DNA of 52,384 nt from a virus (IMGVR_UViG_3300044998_000632:1-52384), one strand, 5' to 3'. Numbered from the stretch's first letter, positions 2,785 to 52,384 are shown. Program-made: numbers and translations. The notes: generated from the sequence alone by a model not told the origin.

Positions 2785-2794
2785 GGAGCCCACC

Positions 2795-3874: not shown

Positions 3875-3918
3875 CATCCACAGGTTTGTAAGTGCAAACT
3901 TCTACGAAGGGAATGGGT

Positions 3919-4416: not shown

Positions 4417-4436
4417 GCCTTTGAAGAGGTTTCCTC

Positions 4437-21309: not shown

Positions 21310-21310
21310 C

Positions 21311-36350: not shown

Positions 36351-36370
36351 GGGTTCCTCAGTTGATTGAT

Positions 36371-36391
36371 GGGGTCACCGTGACCCCGTGA
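36371..36391. repeat. Palindrome copy 1 (partial left arm)
   Basis: GGGGTCAC-C-GTGACCCCGTGA. Confidence 0.9.
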
Positions 36392-39998: not shown

Positions 39999-40016
39999 CG
40001 CATCTCCATCGTGAGC

Positions 40017-40322
40017 CTAACTGTCGCTTGCAGCGGACGGCCTTCGGTCGCCGCTGAAGCTGGCGTTGTGCCGCTTCATTGCTTCGTCAACTGCGTCGCG
40101 CAACGTGCGGCCCGTGATCGGCCGGCCGGTCAGCGTGTCATGCCACACCTGCACAAGGTTGTCCGGGTCAGCAACCATGTCCACGAACAAGGCTTTCTCC
40201 GCGAGCCACCGGAACCGCCGTGCGTCGTCGATGCAGTCGCGCAGGATTTGCGCGTGCTCGCCGTGTCCGTCCTGCGCAAGTCTGCGCGCCAACTTCATCA
40301 GCTCGTGGGCGTTGGCGTTCAT
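40017..40322 (-). CDS. Hypothetical phage protein (DARRFRWL motif)
   Basis: D-RR-RWL and LRDAVDEAM motifs are common in small phage early proteins; ATGA coupling. Confidence 0.55.
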   Translation of the reverse strand: MNANAHELMKLARRLAQDGHGEHAQILRDCIDDARRFRWLAEKALFVDMVADPDNLVQVWHDTLTGRPITGRTLRDAVDEAMKRHNASFSGDRRPSAASDS

Positions 40323-40444
40323 CTCCATCCTCCGTTCCCCTTCATCGCGTGCCACATCAACCACGTCAGCACTCCCAGCGCCATCAACGCCGGAATCGCC
40401 GCTATCGCCAGCAGCACGTACAACAGGTTCAATAAGCAGTCCAT
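40319..40444 (-). CDS. 41-aa transmembrane peptide (not in ORF track)
   Basis: MDCLLNLLYVLLAIAAIPALMALGVLTWLMWHAMKGNGGWR, with RBS GAGGTG. Confidence 0.55.
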   Translation of the reverse strand: MDCLLNLLYVLLAIAAIPALMALGVLTWLMWHAMKGNGGWR

Positions 40445-40537
40445 ACGTCACCTCGTCGCTCTGCACGCGAGAGGCGTGCGCCCATGTGGCCAAAACGGAT
40501 CGCGCTGTAAAGCGCATCTTTCCGCCTACCATCTCCG

Positions 40538-40879
40538 TTACTCTCGTTGCAGTGATGCTTCTCGGCACGCGCGGCGGTACTCATCGAGCAGCGCGTGGCC
40601 ATCTTCCCACGTCCCGGGCCGGTCAAGCAGGGCGCACTCCAGCATGATCGCCAGGCGGTGCGCGTAGGCGCTGCCGACCTCGTGAAGGGCGAGGGCTTCG
40701 CGCAGCTCGGCGATCTCTTGCTCGGCTTCCGCAAGGCGATCGTCGTCGCCACGGCATGATGCAAAGCCGCGCGCCACTGCAAGCTCGCGCTCCACGAATC
40801 CGCCGCCGCTGGTCGGACTGCTGCTGCGCACTTCGGCGCATGGGGCCATTACCGGGGGCTGGCGCGAGGTGGCGCTCAT
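40538..40879 (-). CDS. Hypothetical protein
   Basis: ATGA-coupled ORF. Confidence 0.5.
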   Translation of the reverse strand: MSATSRQPPVMAPCAEVRSSSPTSGGGFVERELAVARGFASCRGDDDRLAEAEQEIAELREALALHEVGSAYAHRLAIMLECALLDRPGTWEDGHALLDEYRRACREASLQRE

Positions 40880-41283
40880 GGCTTCGCCTCGCGCAGCGCC
40901 TGCCGCAGGCGTTCAGCCGCCTTCTGGTGCCGCTCTAGCGCGGCCGCCATCGCCGCCTGCGTGTCCAGGCGGTGCTGGCCCCACTGCGCTTTTCGCTCAG
41001 CCAACAGCTCGGCGCTGTCCTCCAGGCAGTACTCCAAGGCTTCCAAGACGGCTTTGAGTTCACCGTCGTCGGCCATGGCAGCGGCAATCGCCGCTTCCAG
41101 GTCGGAGATGGTGTCATGCGAAAGGGTGCGTAACGCCTCGCCGCACTGGCAGCAGTACCTTGCATTGCGCTGCACGTCTGCGCCGCACCGAGGGCAGTTC
41201 ATGCCGCCGTTATCCGTCACGCTCCACCCGCGCTCGGCCAGCACGGCTGCAGCGCGACGGGCACGATCCGTAGGTTCAGTCAT
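40876..41283 (-). CDS. Zinc-ribbon protein
   Basis: CPRCG...YCCQCG. Confidence 0.6.
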   Translation of the reverse strand: MTEPTDRARRAAAVLAERGWSVTDNGGMNCPRCGADVQRNARYCCQCGEALRTLSHDTISDLEAAIAAAMADDGELKAVLEALEYCLEDSAELLAERKAQWGQHRLDTQAAMAAALERHQKAAERLRQALREAKP

Positions 41284-41522
41284 GTTCTGCTCCGCTTCGG
41301 CCACCAATCAGCCCGTTCGCGCCACTGAATCGTGTCCTGCCGCGCATTGGCGGCACGCAACGACGCCCACTGTGCGGCTTCATCGGCCGGGTTGTGAGCG
41401 AAAGCACATACGCTCCATCCACGTTCGCGGCTGTACCACCGCAAGGAGTACGTCCCTACAGGCCACCATCCCTCCGATGGCGGCGGCCCGCTCCGCAGCG
41501 GTCCTTTTCCGATGTCTTTCAT
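41280..41522 (-). CDS. Trp-rich hypothetical protein
   Basis: SGPPPSEGWWP..LRWY..GWS..IQWR, with RBS AAGGAG. Confidence 0.55.
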   Translation of the reverse strand: MKDIGKGPLRSGPPPSEGWWPVGTYSLRWYSRERGWSVCAFAHNPADEAAQWASLRAANARQDTIQWRERADWWPKRSRT

Positions 41523-41527
41523 ATGCC

Positions 41528-41806
41528 CTACTCCTTGCAGTCTTGTGGCGCCATGCGCACGATATTCGGGCCAGCACCGTAGACGTTGACGAGCCGTCCT
41601 TGTCTTTCGATCCGCTTGCTCAGCAGGCCGGCCAGCACCGCCAGTTCCAGAATCGCGGTCACGCTCTGGCGAGCGATGTCGAATTTGATGGTGATGTCCG
41701 CAGACGTCAGTTCTTCGTCCGGGTTCTCGGCAAAGAACCGGCAGACGTGCAGTGGGATACCGCGTGGCACGTACTCCTCGATTGGCTTGATGCGTGGTCT
41801 TGGCAT
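41528..41806 (-). CDS. Winged-helix-like DNA-binding protein
   Basis: FFAENPDEELTSADITIKFDIARQSVTAILELAVLAGLL..VYGAG. Confidence 0.55.
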   Translation of the reverse strand: MPRPRIKPIEEYVPRGIPLHVCRFFAENPDEELTSADITIKFDIARQSVTAILELAVLAGLLSKRIERQGRLVNVYGAGPNIVRMAPQDCKE

Positions 41807-41821
41807 TTTTGGTCAGGTCCC

Positions 41822-42079
41822 CTATAAAACTACGAACGTCATCAGTAGCGCCAGGAACGACGCCACGGCGGCCAAGAAGGCCACTGCCGCCGCGGCCATC
41901 GCCATGTCGACGATGGTCCAAGTGCGTTCGAGCCGCGCTCGCTCGGCCGCAGTCAGTTGCGGCCGAGCCGGACAGACACGGCCCTGCAGGCAGTTGCCAT
42001 TGCACGGTGGGCACTGCAGGGTGTCCAGGTCGCCCGGTGCCGTCTCCATGGCATCAGGGCGGGTGTTGCGCCACGTCAT
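41822..42079 (-). CDS. Small Cys-rich membrane protein
   Basis: CPPCNGNCLQGRVCPAR plus a C-terminal TM segment. Confidence 0.55.
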   Translation of the reverse strand: MTWRNTRPDAMETAPGDLDTLQCPPCNGNCLQGRVCPARPQLTAAERARLERTWTIVDMAMAAAAVAFLAAVASFLALLMTFVVL

Positions 42080-42264
42080 AGCAACGCCTCCGCCCAAGCC
42101 CGACGCGCCTCGTCGGCGGCGCGCTTCAAGCGCTCGCGCTCAAGGCGCTCCAGCGCGCGGCGCTGCTCCTCAAGGCGCCGCATCTGCAGGTCGGTCAAGG
42201 TGCCGAACGGCCATCCGTCCGGGGTTGTGTCGTCGCGAATGCCGTTGGGGCTGTAGCCGGTCAT
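42076..42264 (-). CDS. Hypothetical protein
   Basis: WPFGTLT motif, coiled coil and ATGA coupling. Confidence 0.5.
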   Translation of the reverse strand: MTGYSPNGIRDDTTPDGWPFGTLTDLQMRRLEEQRRALERLERERLKRAADEARRAWAEALL

Positions 42265-42476
42265 ACGGCCTCCTTCCCCGCACGCTGCGACGCCACGGCG
42301 GCAGTCAGGCTGGCGATCAATCGCTCGGCCTGCTCGATCGACAGCATGGCCCGCAGGCCGCCGCCCTCGACGTCCAACGCGATCCACACCTGTCGGTGGC
42401 CTTCGTCCCGGTCGAGGGTGTAGACCAACACCGTCGGGCCGAACTGGGACTCGATTTTCGGGAAGTTGTTGAGCAA
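42261..42476 (-). CDS. Hypothetical protein (probable TTG start)
   Basis: RBS AAAGGAGAG just upstream of TTG at 42476. Confidence 0.45.
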   Translation of the reverse strand: MLNNFPKIESQFGPTVLVYTLDRDEGHRQVWIALDVEGGGLRAMLSIEQAERLIASLTAAVASQRAGKEAV

Positions 42477-42492
42477 GATGACTCTCCTTTGA

Positions 42493-42864
42493 TCAAACCG
42501 CCGGCACAAATCCGGCGTGACGGAATACGGCAATCTTCCGAACTGATCCGTCCGGCTGCGTCTGTTCCTCCGTCTCGCGGACGGAGAACGCAAACAGCGG
42601 TTCGACGCCTCGCTGCCGCAACGCAGCGGCAAGCGGTGCCATCAACCAAGGCGCTCCGCCGATCATCGCGCGCTTGATTCTTACGGCCGCCGCCACCTCC
42701 GCGATCTGCTCGGCGCGGTCGCGGATCGTCTCCGGGCTGGGGAGATCGAAGAACGTCAACAGCGTTTGCAGCTCGGCTTGAGCTTCATCGGACGGGTCAA
42801 TGACCCCCGCAGCCAGTTGTTCTGCGGTTGCGGCGTGTTGGGTGAGGTTGAGGATCCGAATCAT
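42493..42864 (-). CDS. Csx20-like CARF-related protein; candidate viral ring nuclease
   Basis: ILNLTQH-AT-EQ..GV-D..ELQ-L..AMIGG..G-EPLFAFS-R..E..DG..K..F-H-GF parallels the Csx20 motif order as recalled; no search was run. Confidence 0.6.
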   Translation of the reverse strand: MIRILNLTQHAATAEQLAAGVIDPSDEAQAELQTLLTFFDLPSPETIRDRAEQIAEVAAAVRIKRAMIGGAPWLMAPLAAALRQRGVEPLFAFSVRETEEQTQPDGSVRKIAVFRHAGFVPAV

Positions 42865-42898
42865 TCGTCGTTACTTTCTTCTCTCTTAGATTGAGGAA

Positions 42899-42925
42899 AT
42901 CACGGGGTCACCGTGACCCCGTGAT
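42899..42925. repeat. Palindrome copy 2
   Basis: ATCACGGGGTCAC-C-GTGACCCCGTGAT. Confidence 0.95.
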
Positions 42926-42928
42926 AGA

Positions 42929-43213
42929 TTACTTGGCCATGCGACGCTTGATGCTGTCCATCGTTCGGACAGCGTTGGCGATCCGCTCGTCGGGGATGCG
43001 CTTGCTCAAGCGAGTGAGCATGCGGTGGATGCTGAACGCGATGTCCTCCCAGCCCGAGAGCTGGGCTTCGTAGCGGAACTCCGCTTCGAGCTGCTCGCGT
43101 ATCAGCGCCTGCCGGTCCACGAGGAGCTGTGCAATGGCCGCCGCGGCTTCATGGGCCAGCGGGTCGTCTATGCGCAACAAGGTTGCGAGGACCCGGTCAG
43201 GATCGACCGACAT
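42929..43213 (-). CDS. Hypothetical helical protein
   Basis: ORF tiles after the stop at 43218; the start choice is uncertain. Confidence 0.5.
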   Translation of the reverse strand: MSVDPDRVLATLLRIDDPLAHEAAAAIAQLLVDRQALIREQLEAEFRYEAQLSGWEDIAFSIHRMLTRLSKRIPDERIANAVRTMDSIKRRMAK

Positions 43214-43217
43214 CGCA

Positions 43218-43472
43218 CTACTCGGATGGGTCAAGGGCAACCGATTGACGCCCGACAGCGCGGGCGGGAGCGGGTGCCTTGGGGGTTTCGGCGACTTGCT
43301 TGGCTTCTTGCGCGACATTGGCTCCTTCCTGATGATCTTCGTAGGGGTTGATGCCGAGCAGCCGGCAAACGTGCTCGCACGCGCCGCCGATCTCCCCGGT
43401 CGGGGGTACGTCGTCGCGGTCGAGCCCCAACGCGTTGCGAATGCCGTTGTACACGGCTTGCATCTTCTGCAT
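43218..43472 (-). CDS. Hypothetical protein
   Basis: TAATG coupling and RBS CAGGAG. Confidence 0.5.
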   Translation of the reverse strand: MQKMQAVYNGIRNALGLDRDDVPPTGEIGGACEHVCRLLGINPYEDHQEGANVAQEAKQVAETPKAPAPARAVGRQSVALDPSE

Positions 43473-43702
43473 TACGTTCTCCTGAACAGTCCAGCCAGCC
43501 AGTTGATGAACCGCGGCACCGCAGGCTGGCGATTGCGGCGCGGCAGGAGCAGCGCACGCTGCACCGCGTGTTCGTCTGCATCCATGGGGGCGCACCGCGC
43601 GGCGAACGTCCGATCGTCGTTGCGACGCTCGTACCACGCGGGTTCGAACCTACACCCGATGCGCACCGGCACCAAGGGCTTCACTTCTCCGTGAGCAGGC
43701 AT
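43472..43702 (-). CDS. Hypothetical protein
   Basis: RBS AAGGA; tiles with its neighbours. Confidence 0.5.
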   Translation of the reverse strand: MPAHGEVKPLVPVRIGCRFEPAWYERRNDDRTFAARCAPMDADEHAVQRALLLPRRNRQPAVPRFINWLAGLFRRT

Positions 43703-44016
43703 GGGGATTCCTTCAGCTCGTTGTCAATCTGATCGAGCAGTCGCCCGACCTCCGTGACCTTGGCCAGCCCGCACACGACCAAGGCGTCTCCCTTGGCTGC
43801 GCGGATGGCCGCGATCTCACGGTCCTGCAGCGCCGTCGTGGTGTTGCCTTCAGCCTTGCATTCGATGCCGATGAAGCGGCCGCGATAGCAGACGAGGAAA
43901 TCCGGCACCCCGCTACGACCGTATCCAGCGGTGGCCGGGTAGCAGTACCACGCATTGCGGGCTGTCAGCACGGCGGCTACAGCGTTCTTCACACGCCGTT
44001 CGGGAGTGATGCTCAT
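43681..44016 (-). CDS. VRR-NUC domain nuclease/resolvase
   Basis: TPE-RVK, GYGRSGVPDFL, FIGIECKA and TALQ. Confidence 0.85.
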   Translation of the reverse strand: MSITPERRVKNAVAAVLTARNAWYCYPATAGYGRSGVPDFLVCYRGRFIGIECKAEGNTTTALQDREIAAIRAAKGDALVVCGLAKVTEVGRLLDQIDNELKESPCLLTEK

Positions 44017-44603
44017 GCGGCCCTCCAGATGTAGAAGCCCGTACCCTGCGGCCCACGTTCGACATGTCGCTGGACGATCCGTGCGTCCGGACCGGCAACC
44101 TCCCGCAATGTCGCTTGCAACCCAGCGAGCCCGGTACCACTGACGCGAGGCTTTCCAACGAACACTGCGTCACCTACCTGCATGCATGCTGCAATCTCCC
44201 TCAACTGTTTGGAAAAGACGTTGCTGCGCGTGGCGGGCGGGATCGGGAAGTTCTTGATAAGCGTGAGGCTTGTCGGGCGGCCCTGCTTCGGCGGGGGTGT
44301 GGCCGGCACGTTGCTGGACTGCCGGCTCAACGCGGCTTCCTGCAACGTCTCGTTCGCGGCGTAGAAGTAGCCGTACCGGGTCGTAGTCCCCGGGATCCTG
44401 AGGTGTACTCGTCCGATCACTCCGCGCTGAAGCGCGGATTGCAGCACGACGTGCGGGTTGTAATTCGGCGGCAGGCTCAGCGCCTTCCACTCCGGCGAGG
44501 CCGCGATCTCCGACCACGGGATGGGCATTGAACGGTCCCGCCGCGACAGCACGGTCAGGATGGCGTTCTCGACGAGGGCGGCGGTGCGAATAGGTTGGTT
44601 CAT
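44013..44603 (-). CDS. Hypothetical, possibly DNA-binding protein
   Basis: IKNFPIPP..MQVGDAVFV..G-YIWR C-terminal domain; RBS GGAG. Confidence 0.55.
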   Translation of the reverse strand: MNQPIRTAALVENAILTVLSRRDRSMPIPWSEIAASPEWKALSLPPNYNPHVVLQSALQRGVIGRVHLRIPGTTTRYGYFYAANETLQEAALSRQSSNVPATPPPKQGRPTSLTLIKNFPIPPATRSNVFSKQLREIAACMQVGDAVFVGKPRVSGTGLAGLQATLREVAGPDARIVQRHVERGPQGTGFYIWRAA

Positions 44604-44622
44604 ATTGGCTGACTCCAGTAGG

Positions 44623-44964
44623 TCAGGGATTGGCGATATAGAACACGCGAGTTGCAACGATCCGGTCCGACGCGTCGCGTTCCGCGCTGGCTCCGTGCGA
44701 GACGATGACGTCGTCGCGGTGGATGTCGTGGGCCTGCATCGCCTCGGCAACGACAGGGTCTACGAGGTACAGCGTGTTCGCCTCCGGTGGAGGGAGTTCC
44801 GGACGGGCGTAATCCCGCTTGGCAATGGTGGCGTCTCCGATGAACTTGCCCGTGGGAGCAAGTTGTCGGTCACCGATAAGCCGCCACCCAGAAGGGCGGA
44901 TCGTCTCCAACTTCTCGCCATTGCGAAAGGCAATGGTGATGCCGGTTAGATTGATGATGTTCAT
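44623..44964 (-). CDS. Crn4/Unk01-like protein lacking the NLTPH histidine
   Basis: IINLT..I..I-PSG...Y..LPPP..NTLYLV..VA-A..R-D..V....RD...I pattern as recalled for this family; reads NLTGI instead of NLTPH. Confidence 0.5.
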   Translation of the reverse strand: MNIINLTGITIAFRNGEKLETIRPSGWRLIGDRQLAPTGKFIGDATIAKRDYARPELPPPEANTLYLVDPVVAEAMQAHDIHRDDVIVSHGASAERDASDRIVATRVFYIANP

Positions 44965-44965
44965 G

Positions 44966-45985
44966 TCAGTGTGCTTTCATGATGTTGCGAAGTTCCTGGA
45001 CCTCGGCGCTACCAGTTTCCTCGTCCGCGCCGTCGAGCGGGTCCTGCGCATTGTCGGCGCTGAGCGTATACCATTCGAGCAGGTCATCGAAGTCGCACAT
45101 GCCGGCTTCCAGGTACTCAATCGTCGCCGTCAACTCCACGAGTGCCTCGTCCGCAGACAGGTGTAACACCGGCAAGATGTCGAGCAATTCTTCCTCGGTG
45201 GCGTAGACCTGCAAGAAGCGACGCGCGGACGCATCCCCGTGCCGGCTGTAGTCCTCCACGAGGTCGAACAACTCCACGAGCTTCGCTGCCAGCTCCGTGT
45301 GGGCGCGGAACGAGTCACCCACGGCGTCGACGTCGGTCACGACGTTTTTCTTAGGCGGCGTCCATGACGGGAAGCCGGGTTCGTCGCTCCAATCGTGGAA
45401 GCTCATCCGACCCGAGCCGTACACACCCCACAGATGCGGAGTCCATGCGTAGGTGTTGCTGAACCAGCAACCGGGGAACATATCCGTCGTGACGCCAGCG
45501 CTCTCGTTGACCAACAGCAAGCCGTGCTCGGCGTGGATGAAGATGAAACGGTTCTGGCGGCCGATGTGTTCGCCGATCATCTGCCGGACCAACGGCTCAT
45601 GCACCACCGGTGCGACCGCCACTCCGTAGGTGCGGGCGTAGATCTGTGTGTCGGACTCCTTGGTGGTGTCGCCGCCAATCGACAGCACGCCGTTGTGCAT
45701 GAGGTAGAGCTTGCCGTCGTGAATGGCGTAGGGATGCACGCGCTCCAGGTCGACCGCGCCGTGCGTGCGCATGCGCCAGTGCAGTGCGTACTCGACCCCC
45801 CGCGGAGCGTGCTCCAGCCACCACAGACGGGCGGCGGCCGCATCGGCCGGCAGCGTCTTCTCGACGATGATCGTGCCGTCCTTCACGTAAGCGATGCCGA
45901 GACCGTCGGGGTTTTTGCGGAAGCAGTCCTCGAACCAGTCGGCAGGAAAGACGGTATCGGGGGCGACTTTGACGAGCAAACACAT
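44966..45985 (-). CDS. Class-II (Ntn) glutamine amidotransferase, copy 2
   Basis: Cys2 (MCLLV), NPDGLG, HWRMRTHG, VHPY, MHNGVL, SDT and WFSN. Confidence 0.85.
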   Translation of the reverse strand: MCLLVKVAPDTVFPADWFEDCFRKNPDGLGIAYVKDGTIIVEKTLPADAAAARLWWLEHAPRGVEYALHWRMRTHGAVDLERVHPYAIHDGKLYLMHNGVLSIGGDTTKESDTQIYARTYGVAVAPVVHEPLVRQMIGEHIGRQNRFIFIHAEHGLLLVNESAGVTTDMFPGCWFSNTYAWTPHLWGVYGSGRMSFHDWSDEPGFPSWTPPKKNVVTDVDAVGDSFRAHTELAAKLVELFDLVEDYSRHGDASARRFLQVYATEEELLDILPVLHLSADEALVELTATIEYLEAGMCDFDDLLEWYTLSADNAQDPLDGADEETGSAEVQELRNIMKAH

Positions 45986-46009
45986 GATCGATTCTCCTTC
46001 TTGGTTGAG

Positions 46010-47509
46010 TCAGTTGCAGAATTGGAACTCGCGCCGAGCGTTGTAGGCGAGTTTGGCGAGGTCGGGAACTACTGGTACGAGTCGCGACTGCACGGGGCGC
46101 GCAGTCAACAGCCGCCGCAGTGCGGCCGTGCAAGTGCGGTCCATGTCCATGACGTGCGAGACGAACTGCGACATCGTGGGCTCGGACAGCAGTACGTCGG
46201 TGGAGCGGACGCGGAAGAAATCCACCAGCGCATGAATGAACTGGAACTGAGCCAGTGCCCCGATGAACCGCGGCTGCGCGATGGGGCGGCGCCACTCATA
46301 AGTGGCGGCGCCTCGCTCCAGCCGCGAAAGGTTGACTTCATAGTACCGGGTCAGGTTCGACGTGAGGCTGCCGAGACCCGCGCGCCTGACCAGCTCCCCC
46401 CACGGAAGCGAGAACTGTGGCGGCATCTTGTGGCAGTAGCGGGTGTTGGGACGCCCTGCCACAACGGCGTGTACCTCGGTATTACGAGCAAGGAACGCGG
46501 CCAGCAACGCGGCATACATCAGGTCCGGGATGCGACCGTACTCGCCGATGTGAACGTGCATGCCGGCACGGCGCGACCTTCGCCATGCGATTCGCGGCGC
46601 GTACACCCGACGCATGGCGTCCACCACGTCCTCGTATGCACCGAAGCCGGTGACGACCTCGAATCCTTCATTGATGGACCCATCGCGCTCGATATTGATC
46701 TTCTCCTTCGCGTTCATCTTCACCCAGGTGAGCGCCACGTCCCGGGACAGTGCTCGCGATGGCAGAAGCTCCAACTCGACGCCGAACGTAGGCCCCTTGT
46801 AGTTGGGGTCGCGCAGCCCCACGAGATCGCAATAGCCGGACCGTTGGGTTGAATGGTACTCGTTGCACCGCAGGGTGTTGAGCATCCAAGTCACCCTATC
46901 AGGCGCTCGCGGGAAGTGGGAGATCGCGAGCGGGTCCAGGTCACGCACCGTGACGCACTCGCCATCGGATGACACCATAACTGCAGTCGCGCCGCCTGCC
47001 TGCCTGCGAATCCACTGGCGCTTTTGGCCCGGCATTTCTATGGGCACGAACTCCTTCAACATGCATCGCACACACTTGGCGTGCCTCACGCCGCTCGTGT
47101 CGCAGTGCAAATGTCCGTCGGCGTACTCCAGATGTCCGCACGCGGCACGGGAGTAGGAGCGGCTGAACACGTGGTACGCGGCGCCGGAAAACGCCATGAT
47201 GTCGTCCTCGGACGCCGCGGAGGAGTCCAGCCGCGGCCGCGTCAAAAGCGCTGCCACGGATTCAATATCCGGCATTCCGGGCCGTGAGAGCCGAACCAGA
47301 TGTGCCCGCATCGCCGCGGTGTACGCCCGTACGTTGCGCAGCTTACGGAGCTCGCTGAACGACCGGTAGGTGCCGTCGCGGCTCGTGCGCTCATTGGCGC
47401 GCATCTGCTGTCGAATGCACTCCCGGGCCAACCCCACGCCACCGACGGCGAACGTGTGCATCAGAGGCGTCCGGGGATGCCGGCTCGGAGAACTGTAGTT
47501 GAATGGCAT
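46010..47509 (-). CDS. Putative amidoligase (COOH-NH2 ligase, GS/GCS2-like fold), copy 2
   Basis: EYHS, FGVELE, ERDGSI..GFEVVT, AGMHVHI, RYYEVN and TYEWR. Confidence 0.8.
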   Translation of the reverse strand: MPFNYSSPSRHPRTPLMHTFAVGGVGLARECIRQQMRANERTSRDGTYRSFSELRKLRNVRAYTAAMRAHLVRLSRPGMPDIESVAALLTRPRLDSSAASEDDIMAFSGAAYHVFSRSYSRAACGHLEYADGHLHCDTSGVRHAKCVRCMLKEFVPIEMPGQKRQWIRRQAGGATAVMVSSDGECVTVRDLDPLAISHFPRAPDRVTWMLNTLRCNEYHSTQRSGYCDLVGLRDPNYKGPTFGVELELLPSRALSRDVALTWVKMNAKEKINIERDGSINEGFEVVTGFGAYEDVVDAMRRVYAPRIAWRRSRRAGMHVHIGEYGRIPDLMYAALLAAFLARNTEVHAVVAGRPNTRYCHKMPPQFSLPWGELVRRAGLGSLTSNLTRYYEVNLSRLERGAATYEWRRPIAQPRFIGALAQFQFIHALVDFFRVRSTDVLLSEPTMSQFVSHVMDMDRTCTAALRRLLTARPVQSRLVPVVPDLAKLAYNARREFQFCN

Positions 47510-47535
47510 AGGTTGCTCCTTGTAGGTTCAATTGA

Positions 47536-48723
47536 TCAAACACCGGCCGGGGTGTCGGCCACGAGGCACAGATCATGCACCCGCTTCTCTGCGGCCTCCA
47601 GTTCACTTGCGAGCGCGACTGCGCTCGTGAACATGTTCCACTTGCGCTGAACACCGCACAGGGCTTCGTGGAAATCCAGGATCGCTTTCTTGCGCTTGTC
47701 CGTCGTCATGCTCTGAAGGCTGTCGGTGAAGGCGATCACATCCTGCGGTAACGCGCCACTCCACCCCACTGTGGCCAGCAGCAACGTGGACACCGTCCAC
47801 AGATGAGATGGTGCGGTCGTCATCGGCAGCAACTCGACATGGCGCATCAGTGTCTTGACCGCAGAGGCCAGGTCGGCAGGCAGGTGACTCGCCCAGGTGT
47901 AGTTGCGCGGGATGTAGATCATCTCCTTTCCGGTAAGCCCGCGAAACTCCAAGATGCGCAGATCACCGAACTGCGAAGAGTGCGAAAGCTCCCCGAAGGG
48001 CGCAGTCGAAGGCGCAGTCGAAGGCGCAGTCGAAGGCGCAGTCGAAGGCGCAGTCGAAGGCGCAGTCGAAGGCGCAGTCGAAGGCGCAGTCGAAGGCGCA
48101 GTCGGACGCGGGAATGACGTGTATCCCCACGTCGGCCGCGCAAACTCGGGCAGCGAAGGCCACAACGTGTGGTCGGTCACCGCGTAGTTGTTGGACAGCA
48201 GCATGCCGTCGCACTCGAACCAATCCTTGCGGTTGAGCACGTGGAAATGCTTGCGCCCGGCATCGAGGAGCAGGATGCGGTTCTCGCCGATCGCCCGCTC
48301 GATGAACTTGATGACCCCGCTGCACTCCAGCGCATCGGGGCGCATCTGGTCGAGCAAGTCGGCCAGCAGGCGCGTATCACTGGAACCGCGCCTGAGGTCG
48401 GCATCCACCAGCCGGGACGGCAAGGTTCCGTTGTGCATCATGGCGAATCGCGTGCCGAACGCGAAGGGATGCACATTGGCGAGGCTGCGCGACCCCCTCG
48501 TCACGCGGCGGAAGTGCAGCGCATAGGGCGTGTCGCTGGGCCGCCACCGCTCGATGAACTTCACCACGTTGGAGGGCTTCGTCGCCAGCGTGCGAGCCGT
48601 CACCGGCGTGCCGTCGTCGCTGGCAAACATGATCCCCGTGCCGTCGGGGTTGTACTTCATGGCGTCGGTGATCTGCTCTGGAGTGAGCCTCCTGCCGGCG
48701 GGGATGTGGATGATCAAGCACAT
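47536..48723 (-). CDS. Class-II (Ntn) glutamine amidotransferase, copy 1
   Basis: MCLII, NPDGTG, HFRRVTRG, NVHPF, MHNG, SDT and LSN. Confidence 0.85.
   Translation of the reverse strand: MCLIIHIPAGRRLTPEQITDAMKYNPDGTGIMFASDDGTPVTARTLATKPSNVVKFIERWRPSDTPYALHFRRVTRGSRSLANVHPFAFGTRFAMMHNGTLPSRLVDADLRRGSSDTRLLADLLDQMRPDALECSGVIKFIERAIGENRILLLDAGRKHFHVLNRKDWFECDGMLLSNNYAVTDHTLWPSLPEFARPTWGYTSFPRPTAPSTAPSTAPSTAPSTAPSTAPSTAPSTAPSTAPFGELSHSSQFGDLRILEFRGLTGKEMIYIPRNYTWASHLPADLASAVKTLMRHVELLPMTTAPSHLWTVSTLLLATVGWSGALPQDVIAFTDSLQSMTTDKRKKAILDFHEALCGVQRKWNMFTSAVALASELEAAEKRVHDLCLVADTPAGV
47999..48104. repeat. 12-bp perfect tandem repeat (GGCGCAGTCGAA, ~9 units) encoding (TAPS)n
   Basis: Seen directly in the sequence. 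Confidence 0.95.
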
Positions 48724-48765
48724 GTTCACTTTCCTTTCGTTGGTGAGTTGGTTGATGGAACGGTT

Positions 48766-48790
48766 TCACGGGGTCACGGTGACCCCGTGA
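48766..48790. repeat. Palindrome copy 3
   Basis: TCACGGGGTCAC-G-GTGACCCCGTGA. Confidence 0.95.
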
Positions 48791-48793
48791 CTG

Positions 48794-50452
48794 CTACGCC
48801 CTGGCATACGCCTGCTGGGCTTGCGCCTTGCGCATCTCGGCATTGCGCAACTCACGCAGGCGGGGGGCGAACGCCAGCGACTCGGGATGGTCGACGATGT
48901 AGTGTCGCAGCGTCTTCGTGTTGCGCCGCAGGTACGGATCATCAACCAGCGCGTTAGCGAACCCGCTCGCCGTGAGCGGGTTGCACGCGACGGGGTCGCA
49001 ATACTTGGTCAGCGCCCACACCAGTTCAAGTCGCGCCTTGATGCGCCGCGACCGTCCCGTGCCGGCGAAGATGCGCCACTCGATCGACCCATCACGGCGG
49101 ACATTGATCGCGTTGTAGCGATCGACCGGGCTGCCGAACTGCCGCTTCCAGGCGTCCTTGAGCACCTTGCGCGCCGCGTGCCCGCACAGCGGGTTGCGTG
49201 CATACGAGTTGAACCCGCGGCCGAACAGCGGGCGCAGGAAGGGATAGTTCTCCCCGGCGCAGACGGCTCCGAAGAGCCGCTCAATGTGCGCCTCAGGCAG
49301 GCTGCTCGTGCTGATGTGCAACCCGCAATGGTCGGTGTTGTATCTGTAGTCCCGGACGATGCCGCCGAGCCTGTCCGCCCAGTTACGCACCGTGCCAAGC
49401 GTGGACCACCCGGTGATGATCTCTACTCCGTTGTGCTCGTCCAGCGAGGCGTCCTGTTCGAGTACGACGACCGAAGACAAGTCGTCCGAGTCCATGACAT
49501 CGTCCACGAACGAACTGCGCCCCTCGACGTTGAGTTCGCACTCGAAACCGAGGGTGAGCGTATCCACTTGCAGCGGGTCGTCGTAGTGCGACGCGTGACG
49601 CCGGACGGCCAGTTGCCGCTGACGGCTCCCGCTGTGGTACTCGTACAACTGCGGGTGCCCCGTGCCGTCCTCGTCCTCGTCTCCGTCCTCGTCTCCGTCC
49701 TCGTCTCCGTCGGGGTAGATGTCTTCGAGGGAGTCGAGGGCGGGGTCGAAGTAGCTGTCCGAGCGGACGTCGTACCGCAGCGCGTTCATCGCGAACTCTC
49801 GCGACGCGATCGTGGTGCCGTAGAACTCGATCGTGCGCTCCCCGATCAACGAACTCACCTGCCACACGGACTGGCTCTGCCACCGCGTGACGGGAAGCCC
49901 GCCGATGCAGCCCACTGCGACGAGACACGCGCCGTACTTCGGGATCACCCGGAGTTCGACCTCGCACGTCACGTACTTGTCCCCGAACGCAGCGAGCAGG
50001 CGAGAGCCCAGGCAGGACTGGGGAGTGATGAACCGCGTCTTCAGGAGGTGGTTCACTGCCGGCTGGCATTCCGACAGGTCGAGATCGAATCGGTTGCTCC
50101 CCGCCCAACGACCGATGTCCCGGAACTCCCGCCGGTAGCCGATCGGCCGCGTCCGGGCAGGGGTGTTGACCGTGTCGGTCGCGATGTCGCGGCCGACTGC
50201 GAGCATGTTGCTCGCGAAGTTCACGACGCGGCCGACTGCGAGCATGTTGCTCGCGAAGTTCACGACGCGGCACATGCGGTCGAAACTTTTCCAGTCGCCA
50301 TCCAGCGTGACGACGTACGGTGCGGCGGTCTCGACCACCCGGACGGTGGGGTCGCGGCGCACGAGCACCGCCGCGGCCTGATGGAAGTAGTTGAGCACGC
50401 GAGCGTGCAGCCACGAGCACACGCCCGAGTTGAAGTTGAAAGTGATACGCAT
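48794..50452 (-). CDS. Putative amidoligase, copy 1
   Basis: EYHS, LGFECE, EQDASL..GVEIIT, CGLHIS, RYNAIN and SIEWRIF. A (GGAAA)n purine tract precedes ATG 50452. Confidence 0.8.
   Translation of the reverse strand: MRITFNFNSGVCSWLHARVLNYFHQAAAVLVRRDPTVRVVETAAPYVVTLDGDWKSFDRMCRVVNFASNMLAVGRVVNFASNMLAVGRDIATDTVNTPARTRPIGYRREFRDIGRWAGSNRFDLDLSECQPAVNHLLKTRFITPQSCLGSRLLAAFGDKYVTCEVELRVIPKYGACLVAVGCIGGLPVTRWQSQSVWQVSSLIGERTIEFYGTTIASREFAMNALRYDVRSDSYFDPALDSLEDIYPDGDEDGDEDGDEDEDGTGHPQLYEYHSGSRQRQLAVRRHASHYDDPLQVDTLTLGFECELNVEGRSSFVDDVMDSDDLSSVVVLEQDASLDEHNGVEIITGWSTLGTVRNWADRLGGIVRDYRYNTDHCGLHISTSSLPEAHIERLFGAVCAGENYPFLRPLFGRGFNSYARNPLCGHAARKVLKDAWKRQFGSPVDRYNAINVRRDGSIEWRIFAGTGRSRRIKARLELVWALTKYCDPVACNPLTASGFANALVDDPYLRRNTKTLRHYIVDHPESLAFAPRLRELRNAEMRKAQAQQAYARA
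50188..50270. repeat. Exact 39-bp in-frame tandem duplication (RVVNFASNMLAVG x2)
   Basis: Seen directly in the sequence. Confidence 0.95.
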
Positions 50453-50493
50453 GATTCTTCCTTTCCTTTCCTTTCCTTGGTTGGAACCGCGTG

Positions 50494-50518
50494 TCACGGG
50501 GTCACGGTGACCCCGTGA
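50494..50518. repeat. Palindrome copy 4
   Basis: TCACGGGGTCAC-G-GTGACCCCGTGA; supplies the TGA stop of ORF 50502-50714. Confidence 0.95.
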
Positions 50519-50714
50519 TCATGGCGAGGAACGCCGGGAACGCACGCTCGGCGACGAGCGCGAGCGTGAAGACGACGGCGACGGCGATTGCGAGCGCCAG
50601 CATGACCCACTCCGCCGGGTGCTCGTTGCCACCAGTTTCCGCGCCCTCCAGGTGCGAGTACACCTCGCACGCGCCGGGATCGCCGGCGAAGTTGGGGTCA
50701 GCGTGCTCGTCCAT
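50502..50714 (-). CDS. Small membrane protein
   Basis: RBS GGAGG/CAGGA and a C-terminal hydrophobic segment. Confidence 0.5.
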   Translation of the reverse strand: MDEHADPNFAGDPGACEVYSHLEGAETGGNEHPAEWVMLALAIAVAVVFTLALVAERAFPAFLAMITGSP

Positions 50715-50913
50715 TCCTGGCCACCTCCTTGGTGGGTTGCTTGGTGGCGAAGACGCGGGCGATGCGCTCGCGCTCGGTGTCGACGGCACGGGGCACGAGA
50801 GAGAAGCGGTCGCCCTCCCGCGTCGTGCGCTCGACCTCTTGACGCACCATCTCGGCGATGGCGCGCATCCTGCGCTCGTGGTCGGGAATCAGGTGGCTCC
50901 AGATCAACGTCAT
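50698..50913 (-). CDS. Hypothetical early protein
   Basis: RBS AAAGGAAG; its leader is nearly identical to that of the gene starting at 48723. Confidence 0.55.
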   Translation of the reverse strand: MTLIWSHLIPDHERRMRAIAEMVRQEVERTTREGDRFSLVPRAVDTERERIARVFATKQPTKEVARNGRAR

Positions 50914-50947
50914 GATCTTCCTTTCGTTGGTTGGTGAGTTGAGGGAT

Positions 50948-50974
50948 TTCACGGGGTCACGGTGACCCCGTGAA
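50948..50974. repeat. Palindrome copy 5
   Basis: TTCACGGGGTCAC-G-GTGACCCCGTGAA. Confidence 0.95.
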
Positions 50975-51570
50975 TCGACGCAGAAAATGCAGCGGTGCGT
51001 CGGGTATAGCGTGCGTGATACACGACATACCCGGCGCACCGTAGCTACCGGGATGCTTGCCACTTACCCTGTTAGGGCCACACGTAGGTTGCCGCGTCGG
51101 TTTGAGTATGCGCCTGAGCGCGAAAATACCGTCTTGGTTTCCATAGTAGGTATGCAAGTCTTATGGGGTTGAAATAAATCGCCATGGACAGCCCAGTTCA
51201 ATCCATGCGTCACCCTTGTCTCGTCGGTGAGCCTACGCCGCCATTGCTATCGTGAGTCGTCGCCAGTCCATCCCCTCGTGTCTTGGGTACGACTGGGCAG
51301 GTCACGTAAGCGGTCATGGGGGCTCTTACCCCGCACCCTGAGCGTGTCACTCACATGGGAAGCGACCTTCCACCAGCCTTCACTGCGCATGTGTTGGTAC
51401 GTGGTGCGTCGCTGCATGCTTGCCATTACGGCAGGTGCGCTTGCTCGCATATGCACGAAGCGTAGGTTAGGTACTCGGTTTCGTCCGATTCACGGGGTCA
51501 CGGTGACCCCGTGAAATCCTGCCACGAGGGGGGCAGGTACTACGCAATCTGCTTGCGATATCGACTGGAT
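50975..51570 (-). ncRNA. Candidate long structured non-coding RNA / 5' leader
   Basis: No credible ORF, many hairpins, a long-range CCTACGC/GCGTAGG pair, and a position downstream of promoter + boxA. Confidence 0.45.
51489..51515. repeat. Palindrome copy 6
   Basis: TTCACGGGGTCAC-G-GTGACCCCGTGAA. Confidence 0.95.
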
Positions 51571-51582
51571 TGTTAAAGAGCG
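51571..51582 (-). promoter_or_regulatory. boxA antitermination element
   Basis: The - strand reads CGCTCTTTAACA, matching the lambdoid/rrn boxA consensus. Confidence 0.8.
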
Positions 51583-51585
51583 GCG

Positions 51586-51610
51586 ATTGAAGGCGATATT
51601 CACCTTCAAT
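51586..51610 (-). promoter_or_regulatory. 5' hairpin at a boxB-like position
   Basis: - strand ATTGAAGGTGA-ATA-TCGCCTTCAAT: 11-bp stem with one G-U pair. Confidence 0.6.
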
Positions 51611-51617
51611 ACTACGT

Positions 51618-51646
51618 ATTATATCGTATATACCCCCCCTTGTCAA
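51618..51646 (-). promoter_or_regulatory. Consensus sigma70 early promoter
   Basis: TTGACA (51646-51641), 17-bp spacer, TATAAT (51623-51618). Confidence 0.9.
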
Positions 51647-51694
51647 ATGGAAGTAATACTTTGAAACTGGGCCAAGACGGAGTCTACGGGGTAT

Positions 51695-52384
51695 TCACCC
51701 GCTCAGCCTGGGGGTAAACGGCTCGTACCACGGATTGATGACGACGCCGGGGCGCAGCGAGGGGATCAACTCATCCGGGTCAGGCTTGCGCCAGTGGGTG
51801 GCGAGTGCATTGGGGGGCTCGTGATGCGTGGGCAGGCAGCGCACATCGATTGCCTCGTGGATGGCCGCGAGGTTGTCGCGGGTGATCCGCCGCAGGTGGT
51901 CGACGGGCAGGGCGACGGTCACGGCATCGGCCGTGCGACGCACGGGCACGTCGTCAGTGAGCAGGATGTCGAGCAGGACGGACAGCGGGCTGACGAACGA
52001 CAACGCGGTGCGCGGCACGCCCAGGCACGAGGCGTCGGGCATCAGGGGCATGAAGGTCTGGTGGTTGTGGGTGGGGTTGAGCAGGTTGAGCGGGGTGAGT
52101 GGATTGGGTGAGTCGGGGAGGTTGAGCGCCCCGGTGCGGGCGAGCAGCGCGATGGCGTTGTCCTCCAGGAACGGTCCGTAGGCGAGTTGAAGCTGGGTGA
52201 GGATCTGCTCGGGGGTGCGACGGTTGAGCGACCCCGGCGGCCGGCCGCGGCGGGAACTGGTGGGGGCTTCCTGCGGGGCGTGGGCCGAGTGGGCCGAGTG
52301 GGCCGCGCCGGGCAGGCGTGCATCGAGCCTCAGCAGCAGCCGGTATGCCGGCAGGGGCAGGGTGCGGGGGCGGATCGGCGTGGG
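51695..52384 (-). CDS. Hypothetical protein (5'-truncated) with an AT-hook-like RRGRPPGS
   Basis: The frame of ORF 51695-52051 stays open to the window end. Confidence 0.55.
   Translation of the reverse strand, partial: PTPIRPRTLPLPAYRLLLRLDARLPGAAHSAHSAHAPQEAPTSSRRGRPPGSLNRRTPEQILTQLQLAYGPFLEDNAIALLARTGALNLPDSPNPLTPLNLLNPTHNHQTFMPLMPDASCLGVPRTALSFVSPLSVLLDILLTDDVPVRRTADAVTVALPVDHLRRITRDNLAAIHEAIDVRCLPTHHEPPNALATHWRKPDPDELIPSLRPGVVINPWYEPFTPRLSG

What the first reader, a model, noticed from the sequence alone, without database searches (positions are those of the whole stretch)
44966..50452. Tandem duplicated amidoligase + glutamine amidotransferase pairs as the first large early genes
Seen: ligase1 - GATase1 - ligase2 - GATase2. 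The paralogues are highly diverged but keep the catalytic motifs. Known: COOH-NH2 ligase/GATase-II gene pairs occur in phages such as phiEco32-like viruses and are proposed to amidate or peptide-modify a target. Unusual here: two complete pairs with unrelated long N-terminal (ligase) and C-terminal (GATase) extensions, and variant residues (GLHIS vs GMHVH; HFRRVTRG vs HWRMRTHG). This suggests two substrate-specific modification systems acting early on host proteins, cell wall or a signalling metabolite, next to candidate anti-defence genes.
Basis: partly seen in the sequence, partly recalled or inferred. Interest (0 to 1): 0.72.

Follow-up and report, generated by a model that had tools for sequence, protein, structure and literature searches.

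The report
Doubled phage amidoligase–amidotransferase gene pair
A hot-spring phage carries two very different copies of a widespread two-gene enzyme module whose function has never been tested (an ATP-dependent ligase plus a glutamine-splitting enzyme) at the head of its early genes. The module is known; carrying two copies is rare but not unique.

Summary
Four intact minus-strand genes read ligase1 – GATase1 – ligase2 – GATase2 (50452→44966). Both GATases are class-II (N-terminal Cys) amidotransferases and clear paralogues (29% identity, E 4e-16). The ligases are alike only at profile level (hhalign 99.8%). Neither reaches the Pfam Amidoligase_2 model, but 12 of 21 homologues of ligase2 do. 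The ligase2 model matches YbdK and glutamine synthetases (Z 12.8). All ten invariant ligase positions are kept in both; ligase1 lacks one His of the HxH motif.

The ligase→GATase pair is a conserved phage module. It is adjacent in 80 of 81 IMG/VR loci, and none of the 81 has a second pair. The long N- and C-terminal extensions are normal for the family. Doubling recurs elsewhere: a Nocardia africana element carries the same tandem four-gene order, and an Acinetobacter phage carries two separate pairs. Here the pairs belong to different subfamilies, so this is not a recent duplication.

The genes lie behind a perfect σ70 promoter, ahead of the replication genes. The most likely function is two glutamine-dependent amidations of unknown carboxylates. 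This is inferred and untested. I rate it a new variant of a known, uncharacterised module, of moderate interest.

The parts
48794..50452 (-). Ligase1, 552 aa. It has an N-terminal part of about 255 aa with no known family, an acidic linker, and a C-terminal Amidoligase_2-like (GS/GCS-fold) domain at about 260-530. The motif is GLHIS: one His of the family's HxH motif is missing.
   Evidence: ORF, start; hhalign 99.8% to the ligase2 family; 10 of 10 invariant positions kept; HxH exception shared with its orthologue P0002; tblastn E 3e-4 to a phage 'putative amidoligase'; phrog_16683, E 9.8e-6; protein-atlas lead; no Pfam family in the N-terminal part
47536..48723 (-). GATase1, 395 aa. It has a class-II (Ntn) glutaminase domain at 1 to about 190 starting Met-Cys, an (APST)n linker, and a C-terminal part of about 150 aa with no known family.
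   Evidence: Pfam GATase_4, 25.1 / 26.2 bits, cut-off 23; paralogue of GATase2; 24 of 28 conserved positions kept; 12-bp x 9.2 repeat
46010..47509 (-). Ligase2, 499 aa. It has an N-terminal part of about 210 aa (low model confidence, with a Cys/His cluster shared with P0003) and a C-terminal Amidoligase_2-like domain at about 215-499 with the motif GMHVH.
   Evidence: 22 phmmer hits including itself; 12 of 21 homologues pass Pfam PF12224; invariant positions; model, residues 220-499 at pLDDT 80-97; YbdK / GS / GCL fold, Z 12.8; start
44966..45985 (-). GATase2, 339 aa. It has a class-II (Ntn) glutaminase domain at 1-190 starting Met-Cys, a disordered linker at 191-217, and a helical C-terminal domain at 218-309.
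   Evidence: 407 homologues; A3 invariant positions; model pLDDT 83.4; Foldseek: GlmS glutaminase E 3.9e-7, EgtC 4e-5, PurF; Pfam below cut-off: GATase_4 15.1 bits
51618..51646 (-). Consensus sigma-70 promoter (TTGACA, 17 nt, TATAAT; 12 of 12). It is the only such site in 40000-52384 and lies upstream of the gene row.
50495..50517 (-). Copy of the 23-nt palindrome CACGGGGTCACCGTGACCCCGTG, 43 nt before the ligase1 ATG.
48767..48789 (-). Copy of the same palindrome in the 70-nt gap between ligase1 and GATase1. As RNA it folds into an 11-bp stem with a 3-nt loop.
50188..50271 (-). Perfect in-frame 39-bp x 2.2 tandem repeat (a 13-aa duplication) in the ligase1 N-terminal part.
   Evidence: contigs of a public run break here
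47994..48104 (-). A 12-bp x 9.2 tandem repeat that encodes the (APST)n linker of GATase1.

Best explanation
The four genes are two cognate two-gene modules. Each module is a GS/GCS-fold, ATP-dependent carboxylate-amine ligase (Amidoligase_2-like) followed by a free-standing class-II (N-terminal-Cys, Ntn) glutamine amidotransferase. SHOWN: domain identity and fold; retention of the family-invariant positions in all four proteins; the fixed ligase-then-GATase order of this module in other phages; that the two modules belong to different subfamilies; and their place behind a consensus sigma-70 promoter, ahead of the replication genes. INFERRED: in each module the GATase splits glutamine and passes ammonia to the ligase. 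The ligase has meanwhile activated a carboxylate with ATP as an acyl-phosphate, so the net reaction is R-COOH to R-CONH2. The two modules would then act on two different carboxylates, or on two carboxyls of one molecule, early in infection. The substrate is unknown. A cell-wall peptide was proposed for phiEco32, as reported in PMC10580990. The variable ligase N-terminal and GATase C-terminal extensions would give partner or target specificity.
For: Ligases: phmmer of ligase2 against 1.84 billion representatives gave 22 hits at E<=1e-3, itself included. Of the 21 others, 15 match Pfam Amidoligase_2 at E<=0.01 and 12 reach its cut-off, one of them at 150.8 bits. Ligase1 against that family: hhalign 99.8%, E 6.5e-30. 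The AF2 model of ligase2 (residues 220-499 at pLDDT 80-97) gave VIA Z 12.8, 217-219 aligned residues, rmsd 4.0, to YbdK-type ligases 1r8g/1tt4. All 50 listed entries are YbdK, GS, GCL or GmaS enzymes. Foldseek found 64 matches at E<=1e-3. In 90 non-redundant ligase domains, ten positions (G, E, E, D, S, E, G, R, E, R) are 90 of 90, ligase1 and ligase2 included. GATases: both start Met-Cys. GATase1 passes Pfam GATase_4. The GATase2 model matches the GlmS glutaminase domain, EgtC and PurF. The Cys, Arg, Asn-Gly and Asp positions are kept in both. Coupling: the ligase ORF lies directly upstream on the same strand in 79 of 80 IMG/VR loci (the exception is cut at the contig end), with gaps of 2-79 nt, median 30. 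The same holds in L118 and in 10 of 11 bacterial-genome loci. Ligase and GATase were duplicated together in three lineages: this window, Nocardia africana and an Acinetobacter phage. Early position.
Against: Neither ligase matches the Pfam PF12224 model directly: no hit at E<=0.1 and none at E<=1 on the window. Ligase1 and its orthologue P0002 are the only 2 of 90 ligase domains that lack one His of the HxH motif, so ligase1 may bind metal or nucleotide differently. GATase1 departs at 4 of 28 conserved positions. No substrate, complex or expression was shown. From recall, not tested here: characterised ammonia-donating subunits that are separate proteins are class I, while the characterised free-standing class-II enzyme EgtC is a gamma-glutamyl hydrolase. 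EgtC is the second-best structural match of GATase2. The ligase1-GATase1 gap holds a strong hairpin, which could uncouple their expression.
Confidence: 0.5

Rival explanations
1. Gamma-glutamyl logic instead of ammonia transfer. The ligase would join glutamate (or another amino acid) to an amine, as YbdK/EgtA-type GCS2 ligases, PuuA or GmaS do. The class-II enzyme would be an EgtC-like hydrolase that removes or trims a gamma-glutamyl group.
For: The best structural matches of ligase2 are YbdK-type ligases, then gamma-glutamylmethylamide synthetase, GS and GCL. EgtC is the second family in the GATase2 Foldseek list (E 4e-5). The Pfam family hit is GATase_4; that this family holds EgtC and YafJ is recalled.
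Against: A ligase plus a hydrolase of the same bond is a futile cycle unless a third enzyme acts in between. In 121 flanking ORFs of 14 related loci no third conserved enzyme appeared; only replication and recombination families did (26 further ORFs of two near-duplicate loci were not sent). GlmS, a true ammonia donor, is the top structural match.
Confidence: 0.2
2. Protein or peptide tagging. The GS-fold ligase would attach an amino acid or peptide to a host or phage protein, as PafA does in pupylation, and the Ntn enzyme would act as a deamidase or peptidase that prepares or removes the tag.
For: The fold is the same as that of the PafA/Dop superfamily (that assignment is recalled; the GS-type fold is shown). 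The extensions are large and variable, as expected for protein recognition. Ten of the 12 closest GATase2 homologues end in a conserved Y-[AS]-G carboxy terminus. Nocardia relatives have Cys-rich, zinc-ribbon-like extensions on both partners.
Against: GATase2 of this window lacks the Y-[AS]-G tail. No tag-like small gene is conserved beside the pair. No PafA or Dop chain is among the 50 best structural matches listed.
Confidence: 0.12
3. DNA or nucleotide hypermodification. The modules would finish a base modification that protects phage DNA.
For: PMC8989533 (passages read) reports amidoligase and glutamine-amidotransferase domains of unknown function beside thymidine-hypermodification genes in some viral contigs. 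The modules here lie just upstream of the replication genes.
Against: Pfam scans of 20 other minus-arm ORFs found only DUF927 primase, SNF2 helicase and family-A DNA polymerase. There was no kinase, pyrophosphorylase-type transferase, dUMP hydroxymethylase or TET/JBP hit. None appeared in 121 flanking ORFs of related loci either.
Confidence: 0.08
4. One pair, most likely ligase1/GATase1, is a decaying or redundant copy with no separate function.
For: Ligase1 lacks one His of HxH. GATase1 differs at 4 of 28 conserved positions. Both genes hold perfect tandem repeats. No relatives of GATase1 were found in IMG/VR.
Against: All four frames are open. Ligase1 keeps 10 of 10 invariant positions, and its HxH variant is shared with an orthologue at 44-46% identity (P0002), which points to selection rather than decay. 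GATase1 is the one that passes the Pfam cut-off. Each pair has its own ribosome-binding sites.
Confidence: 0.07

Closest known systems
Phage Amidoligase_2 + class-II GATase pairs: phiEco32-like and LUZ24-like phages (UFV-P2 ORF23/ORF25), OM43 phages MEP401/402, and podovirus MW202733
   Same: The two domains, the ligase-then-GATase order and the early-region position are the same. MW202733 has PF12224 at 30 bits followed by GATase_4 at 26.7 bits. MEP401/402 are. UFV-P2 is in PMC3890496 (passages). The function is untested in all of them, and PMC10580990 says so (passages).
   Different: This window has two pairs in tandem, from different subfamilies. Neither ligase reaches the Pfam model. LUZ24-like cassettes also carry a COOH-NH2_lig (PF14395) protein and an ATP-grasp enzyme; neither was found here.
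Doubled modules elsewhere: Nocardia africana NBRC 100379 (two loci, each LIG-GAT-LIG-GAT) and Acinetobacter phage vB_AciJM_313 (two separate pairs)
   Same: The whole module is duplicated, ligase and GATase together. In Nocardia the tandem four-gene order is the same as here.
   Different: Their paralogues are much closer to each other: ligases 47-52% and GATases 47-65% identical. Here the GATases are 29% identical and the ligases show no BLASTP similarity. The pairs in the Acinetobacter phage are about 16 kb apart on opposite strands.
YbdK / GCS2 carboxylate-amine ligases (PDB 1r8g, 1tt4) and glutamine synthetase
   Same: The catalytic domain has the same fold: Z 12.8 and 10-12. Three motifs align in the same order, GxELE, GxHVHvG and TxExR (not significant on its own).
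   Different: Sequence identity is 14-15%. Sequence searches against PDB gave nothing significant. The phage proteins also carry an extra N-terminal part of about 200-250 aa.
MurT/GatD peptidoglycan amidation complex
   Same: The proposed logic is the same: a separate glutaminase protein feeds ammonia to an ATP-dependent ligase that amidates a carboxylate. The genes are co-transcribed (abstract of PMC3267633 seen in the listing).
   Different: The folds differ. MurT is a Mur-ligase relative according to that abstract. That GatD is a class-I (triad) glutaminase is recalled. No homology to either was tested or claimed.
EgtA/EgtC of ergothioneine synthesis
   Same: It pairs a GCS-type ligase with a free-standing class-II Ntn enzyme. 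EgtC is a close structural match of GATase2.
   Different: EgtC is a hydrolase acting after an intervening enzyme (recalled). No such third gene is conserved beside the phage pair.

Membership tests
Pfam Amidoligase_2 (PF12224) | Score at or above the model's gathering cut-off (22 bits) | tested here: not met
   Neither ligase hits at E<=0.1, and there is no match on the window at E<=1. I therefore call them Amidoligase_2-like relatives, not members by Pfam's own rule.
Pfam Amidoligase_2 (PF12224) | Significant sequence homology to proteins that do pass the cut-off | tested here: met
   Ligase2: 12 of 21 phmmer homologues pass, and P0013 scores 150.8 bits. Ligase1: hhalign 99.8% to that alignment, and tblastn E 3e-4 to the MW202733 protein, which passes at 30 bits.
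GS/GCS-fold carboxylate-amine ligases | Glutamine-synthetase-type catalytic fold | tested here: met
   Ligase2 model: Z 12.8 to 1r8g/1tt4, Z 10-12 to GS, Z 11.1 to plant GCL. Ligase1 was not modelled; its fold rests.
GS/GCS-fold carboxylate-amine ligases | Conserved acidic, His and Arg positions of the active site | tested here: met
   Ten positions are 90 of 90 in non-redundant domains, both ligases included. The HxH motif is complete in ligase2 but lacks one His in ligase1. The roles of these residues (metal, ATP) are recalled from GS, not tested.
Class-II (Ntn) glutamine amidotransferase, Pfam GATase_4 (PF13230) | Score at or above the cut-off (23 bits) | tested here: met
   GATase1 scores 25.1 and 26.2 bits. 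GATase2 scores only 15.1 bits, which is not met for GATase2 on its own. GATase2 is tied to the family by E 4e-16 to GATase1, by homologues carrying PF13230 and by fold.
Class-II (Ntn) glutamine amidotransferase | Cys directly after the initiator Met; Arg, Asn-Gly and Asp of the glutamine site | tested here: met
   Both start Met-Cys. R71/72, N98-G99 and D112/116 are kept in both. In that count the Cys column is partly fixed by construction, because the database rows were chosen to start Met-Cys. Residue roles are recalled from PurF and GlmS.
Class-II (Ntn) glutamine amidotransferase | Ntn four-layer fold | tested here: met
   GATase2 model (residues 1-190 at pLDDT >90): Foldseek gives GlmS glutaminase domain E 3.9e-7, EgtC, GFAT and PurF, with 51 matches at E<=1e-3. 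GATase1 was not modelled.
Conserved phage ligase-then-GATase two-gene module | Ligase directly upstream of the GATase on the same strand, with a short gap | tested here: met
   Window gaps are 70 nt (pair 1) and 24 nt (pair 2). In 79 related loci the gaps are 2-79 nt, median 30.
Glutamine-dependent amidoligase (functional class) | Physical complex and ammonia transfer from GATase to ligase | not testable with these tools
   This needs biochemistry; the one complex job gave no verdict (see Tried and rejected).

The most novel reading that the evidence does not exclude
The ligase-GATase module is a co-evolving, target-specific modification device. The two partners duplicate and diverge together, as seen in three independent lineages. 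Their hypervariable ligase N-terminal and GATase C-terminal extensions would set cognate pairing and target choice. On this reading the phage uses two non-interchangeable modules at the very start of infection to amidate two different host carboxylates, for example two positions of the peptidoglycan stem peptide or a defence or signalling component. They would sit in one early takeover block with candidate anti-type-III-CRISPR genes.
Probability: 0.15. Interest if true: 0.75.

Novelty: new variant of a known kind. Interest (0 to 1): 0.42.

Why it matters
The amidoligase + class-II GATase pair is one of the commonest enzyme modules in phage early regions. A single scan found 183 relatives in IMG/VR. 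Yet none of the papers I found reports an experimental function (full-text searches). A genome with two deeply diverged but intact modules side by side is a natural test bed. Cognate versus cross pairing, and the product of each module, can be compared in one background. The recurrence of whole-module duplication suggests that the two proteins work as a specific pair. If the products were identified, this would assign a function to a large family of unexplained phage genes.

Tried and rejected
Searches for close relatives and their gene context:
- Megablast of the region and tblastn of ligase2 against the phage collection found nothing.
- Single-protein scans of IMG/VR with ligase1, ligase2, P0002, P0003 and GATase1 found no relatives.
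- Alignment A1 was too diverse for that tool.
- A2 and A6 in JGI metagenomes found nothing. A6 in IMG/VR found nothing. A2 in IMG/VR found one distant single pair.
- The word-index search found only one homologue of ligase1 and none of ligase2.
- I could therefore not see whether the closest relatives (P0002, P0003, P0025 and others, all on assemblies I could not fetch) also carry both pairs.

Family and structure searches:
- PDB sequence searches were blank or not significant (YbdK-type chains at E 0.96 and 2).
- NCBIfam gave nothing useful.
- The N- and C-terminal extensions match no Pfam family.
- A profile of the C-terminal parts of IMG/VR GATases does not match either window GATase.

Binding and expression:
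- The complex prediction for ligase2 + GATase2 scored 0.00, which the tool counts as no verdict. It is not used as evidence either way.
- No RNA holder was listed among the public runs, so expression could not be examined.

Other checks:
- Contigs of the runs break at the tandem repeats, so repeat copy numbers are unconfirmed.
- The small neighbouring ORFs have no homologues in 95 related loci.
- The two small CRISPR-related ORFs are not detectably alike.
- PADLOC has no hit for the four enzymes.
- I looked for an RNA polymerase that might use the hairpins as promoters. The giant virion protein shows only an SLT domain in Pfam and no polymerase was found.
- Iyer et al. 2009 (Mol Biosyst 5:1636) is not held. 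What I say of it is recalled or taken from papers that cite it.
- The PNAS 2026 fimbriae paper concerns an ATP-grasp enzyme and is not relevant.
- Supplementary files of papers were not consulted; the gene tables of PMC3517423 and PMC10580990 may list more pairs.

Full report
SETTING. The window is one IMG/VR virus record of 52,384 bases, linear, with CheckV completeness 83%. G+C is 62-70% and there is no tRNA gene. Genes on the plus strand up to 28747 are structural: major head protein, tail fibre, and a 2,495-aa virion protein with an SLT transglycosylase domain at its start and a DarB-like end. Genes on the minus strand from 52384 down to 28935 include family-A DNA polymerase, SNF2-type helicase and a DUF927 primase. 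The finding lies at the upstream end of this minus-strand arm. The only sigma-70-type site in 40000-52384 is a perfect one (TTGACA, 17 nt, TATAAT) at 51646-51618 on the minus strand. After it come a few small ORFs and then ligase1. 'First large early genes' is therefore reasonable, but it rests on position; expression was not seen. Near-identical DNA occurs in contigs of runs labelled hot-springs and microbial-mat metagenomes. Two of those runs may be the source of the record.

THE OBSERVATION. Four open frames follow one another on the minus strand: ligase1 48794-50452, GATase1 47536-48723, ligase2 46010-47509 and GATase2 44966-45985. Each has a purine-rich ribosome-binding site before its ATG. 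Contigs of run X1 bridge GATase2-ligase2-GATase1 and GATase1-ligase1 without a difference. X1 may be the source sample, so this is not independent support. The gaps are 70, 26 and 24 nt.

THE GATASES. GATase1 and GATase2 align over their first 190 residues at 29% identity, E 4e-16. GATase1 passes the Pfam GATase_4 cut-off (25.1 bits; 26.2 bits). GATase2 does not (15.1 bits), but it has 407 database homologues at E<=1e-3. Its AF2 model (pLDDT 83.4) matches the glutaminase domain of GlmS (E 3.9e-7), EgtC, GFAT-1 and PurF, with 51 matches at E<=1e-3. Both proteins begin Met-Cys, as an Ntn enzyme must. In an alignment of 176 non-redundant N-domains, GATase1 keeps 24 of 28 conserved positions. It differs at H75R, D79S, Y86F and G164W in GATase2 numbering. 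Both proteins keep the Cys, Arg, Asn-Gly and Asp positions. In that count the database rows were chosen to start Met-Cys, and the residue roles are recalled from PurF and GlmS.

THE LIGASES. Neither ligase matches any Pfam family. The Amidoligase_2 model finds nothing on the window even at E<=1. BLASTP between the two finds nothing. The link is transitive but strong.
- phmmer of ligase2 against 1.84 billion representatives gave 22 hits, itself included.
- Of the 21 others, 15 match PF12224 at E<=0.01 and 12 reach its cut-off.
- The alignment of these (A1) has invariant G243, E245, E247, D276, S278, E284, G316, H318, H320, R353, E405 and R407.
- Ligase1 with its one homologue (P0002, 44% identity) matches A1 by hhalign at 99.8%, E 6.5e-30 over 249 columns.
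- The AF2 model of ligase2 is confident over 220-499 and poor over 1-212.
- Foldseek puts YbdK-type ligases, gamma-glutamylmethylamide synthetase, GS and GshF on top.
- VIA-align gives Z 12.8 (217-219 residues, rmsd 4.0) to 1r8g/1tt4, Z 10-12 to GS and Z 11.1 to plant GCL. All 50 listed entries are of this fold.
In 90 non-redundant ligase domains, ten positions are invariant, ligase1 included. The HxH motif is complete in 88. The two exceptions are ligase1 (GLHIS) and its orthologue P0002. This is a clade feature, not random decay. Two protein-atlas look-ups pointed to viral PF12224 clusters as well; I treat those as leads only.

THE PAIR IS A CONSERVED MODULE. An IMG/VR scan with the GATase2 alignment found 183 relatives, of which 80 loci were kept. 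I scanned their six frames with profiles of A1 and A3. In 79 of 80 loci a ligase ORF lies directly upstream of the GATase on the same strand; the exception is cut at the contig end. One more locus shows the same. The gap is 2-79 nt, median 30. None of the 81 loci has a second ligase or GATase. However, the loci span only 4.4-20.6 kb, so a second pair further away would be missed. Deposited phages show the same pair: MW202733, MEP401/402, C75C1 and vB_AciJM_313. LUZ24-like phages show it too (PMC3890496 and PMC3517423, passages). Pfam scans of 121 flanking ORFs from 14 loci found only replication and recombination families and no third conserved enzyme. Two near-duplicate loci, 26 ORFs, were left out of that scan.

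THE EXTENSIONS ARE NORMAL. Related ligase ORFs are 429-1241 aa, median 482. Related GATases are 228-432 aa. The catalytic domains are about 280 and 190 aa. Ligase N-terminal and GATase C-terminal extensions are therefore the family rule. They are variable: no Pfam family matches them, no similarity was found between the two window copies, and a profile of the IMG/VR C-terminal parts does not match either window GATase. The C-terminal domain of GATase2 is a confidently modelled helical bundle at 218-309, and it is shared by about a dozen homologues.

DOUBLING IS RARE BUT NOT UNIQUE, AND IT IS OLD HERE. Of 11 loci found in bacterial genomes, 9 have one pair, one has a GATase alone, and one has LIG-GAT-LIG-GAT; that one is from Nocardia africana. 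Searching that genome found the four-gene cassette at two loci. Of 9 flanking ORFs at one of them, 4 match phage protein families. Acinetobacter phage vB_AciJM_313 has one pair at 20.4-22.1 kb. It has another at 4.0-5.7 kb that recurs with identical scores at 103.5-105.2 kb, probably a terminal repeat. In both cases ligase and GATase were duplicated together. Their paralogues are 47-52% (ligases) and 47-65% (GATases) identical. In the window the GATases are 29% identical and the ligases are not alignable by BLASTP.

The trees agree. GATase2 sits in an 8-row clade (SH-aLRT 99) with database proteins, while GATase1 is a long branch outside the 77-row main group (80 rows). Ligase2 pairs with P0003 (99) inside a 10-row clade (97). 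Ligase1 pairs with P0002 (100) and joins that clade only at 86 (90 rows, quick search, many long branches). Each ligase thus has its own orthologue elsewhere. The two modules are different subfamilies, not a recent tandem copy.

MECHANISM. What is shown is two intact enzyme pairs of known folds, with conserved active-site positions and a fixed gene order. What I infer is the textbook chemistry of the two folds. The GS-type ligase phosphorylates a carboxylate with ATP. The Ntn enzyme hydrolyses glutamine. The ammonia then makes the amide. The strict linkage and the joint duplication of both genes argue that they work as a specific pair. Their membership of different subfamilies argues for two substrates. 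The substrate is open. PMC10580990 (passages) reports that Iyer et al. 2009 suggested cell-wall modification and exclusion of other phages for phiEco32, and states that the functions remain to be explored. PMC4281155 lists the GATase among early gene products detected by proteomics in a phiEco32-like phage (passage).

The main rival is gamma-glutamyl chemistry (YbdK/EgtA-type ligase with an EgtC-type hydrolase). The structural matches cannot exclude it, but it lacks a conserved third enzyme. Protein tagging, DNA hypermodification (PMC8989533; no such genes here) and decay of one pair are less likely.

VERDICT. This is a new variant (doubled, deeply diverged, with a one-His ligase clade) of a known and widespread phage module that nobody has characterised. 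Interest is moderate. Its value is as a test bed for a long-unexplained family rather than as a new kind of system.

Noticed in passing
window 51491-51513, 50950-50972, 50495-50517, 48767-48789, 42901-42923, 36368-36390 (2 mismatches): There are six copies of a 23-nt palindrome (CACGGGGTCACCGTGACCCCGTG), all in minus-arm intergenic gaps and none expected by chance. Each lies within about 50 nt upstream of the next minus-strand start codon. As RNA it folds into an 11-bp stem with a 3-nt loop and no U tail. One copy separates ligase1 from GATase1. It could be an RNA processing or stabilising hairpin, an operator or a hairpin promoter. No phage RNA polymerase was found.
   Followed up: partly
window 44623-44964 (-) and 42493-42864 (-): The 113-aa ORF whose ATG overlaps the GATase2 stop matches PADLOC PDLC01138, 'unknown small protein, sometimes fused to CARF' (E 3.9e-7, full length). 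A 123-aa ORF behind another palindrome copy partly matches Csx20 (E 2.4e-6, residues 79-119 only). Csx20 is a confirmed cA4 ring nuclease (bioRxiv 10.1101/2024.09.24.614671, passages). These are candidate anti-type-III-CRISPR genes. The two are not alike by BLASTP and are absent from related loci.
   Followed up: partly
window 50188-50271, 49672-49711, 47994-48104: There are perfect in-frame tandem repeats inside ligase1 (39 bp x 2.2, and a 12-bp acidic repeat x 3.3) and GATase1 (12 bp x 9.2, giving (APST)n). Contigs of the public runs break exactly at these places, so copy numbers are unconfirmed and may vary.
   Followed up: partly
proteins P0026-P0034, P0036, P0052, P0139 (homologues of GATase2): Twelve of 120 listed homologues end in Y-[AS]-G, including 10 of the 12 closest. 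GATase2 of the window and P0025 end differently. A conserved carboxy-terminal Gly tail on an enzyme paired with a carboxylate ligase is unexplained.
   Followed up: no
L102 (Nocardia africana contig) 782-4911; G001 contigs C12 and C35: The LIG-GAT-LIG-GAT cassette is present twice in this genome at 86-95% identity between copies. Both the ligase N-terminal and the GATase C-terminal extensions are rich in CxxC pairs. Neighbouring ORFs match phage protein families and ParB.
   Followed up: partly
L010 (Acinetobacter phage vB_AciJM_313) 1192-9885: In this phage one ligase-GATase pair lies about 3 kb downstream of genes annotated ribose-phosphate pyrophosphokinase and nicotinamide phosphoribosyltransferase. 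A second pair lies in what looks like a long terminal repeat.
   Followed up: no
window 47065-47140 (ligase2 residues about 124-149): A Cys/His cluster (C-G-H ... R-H-x(0-2)-C-x2-C) is shared with P0003 but not with P0005 or P0008. It may be a zinc site. One atlas cluster of related proteins carries a LIM domain in 14% of members.
   Followed up: no
window 21260-28747 (+): This is a 2,495-aa virion protein with an SLT transglycosylase domain at residues 53-152 and a C-terminal third that matches 'DarB-like antirestriction' PHROGs (E 4.9e-47). Residues from about 250 to 1650 have no match.
   Followed up: no
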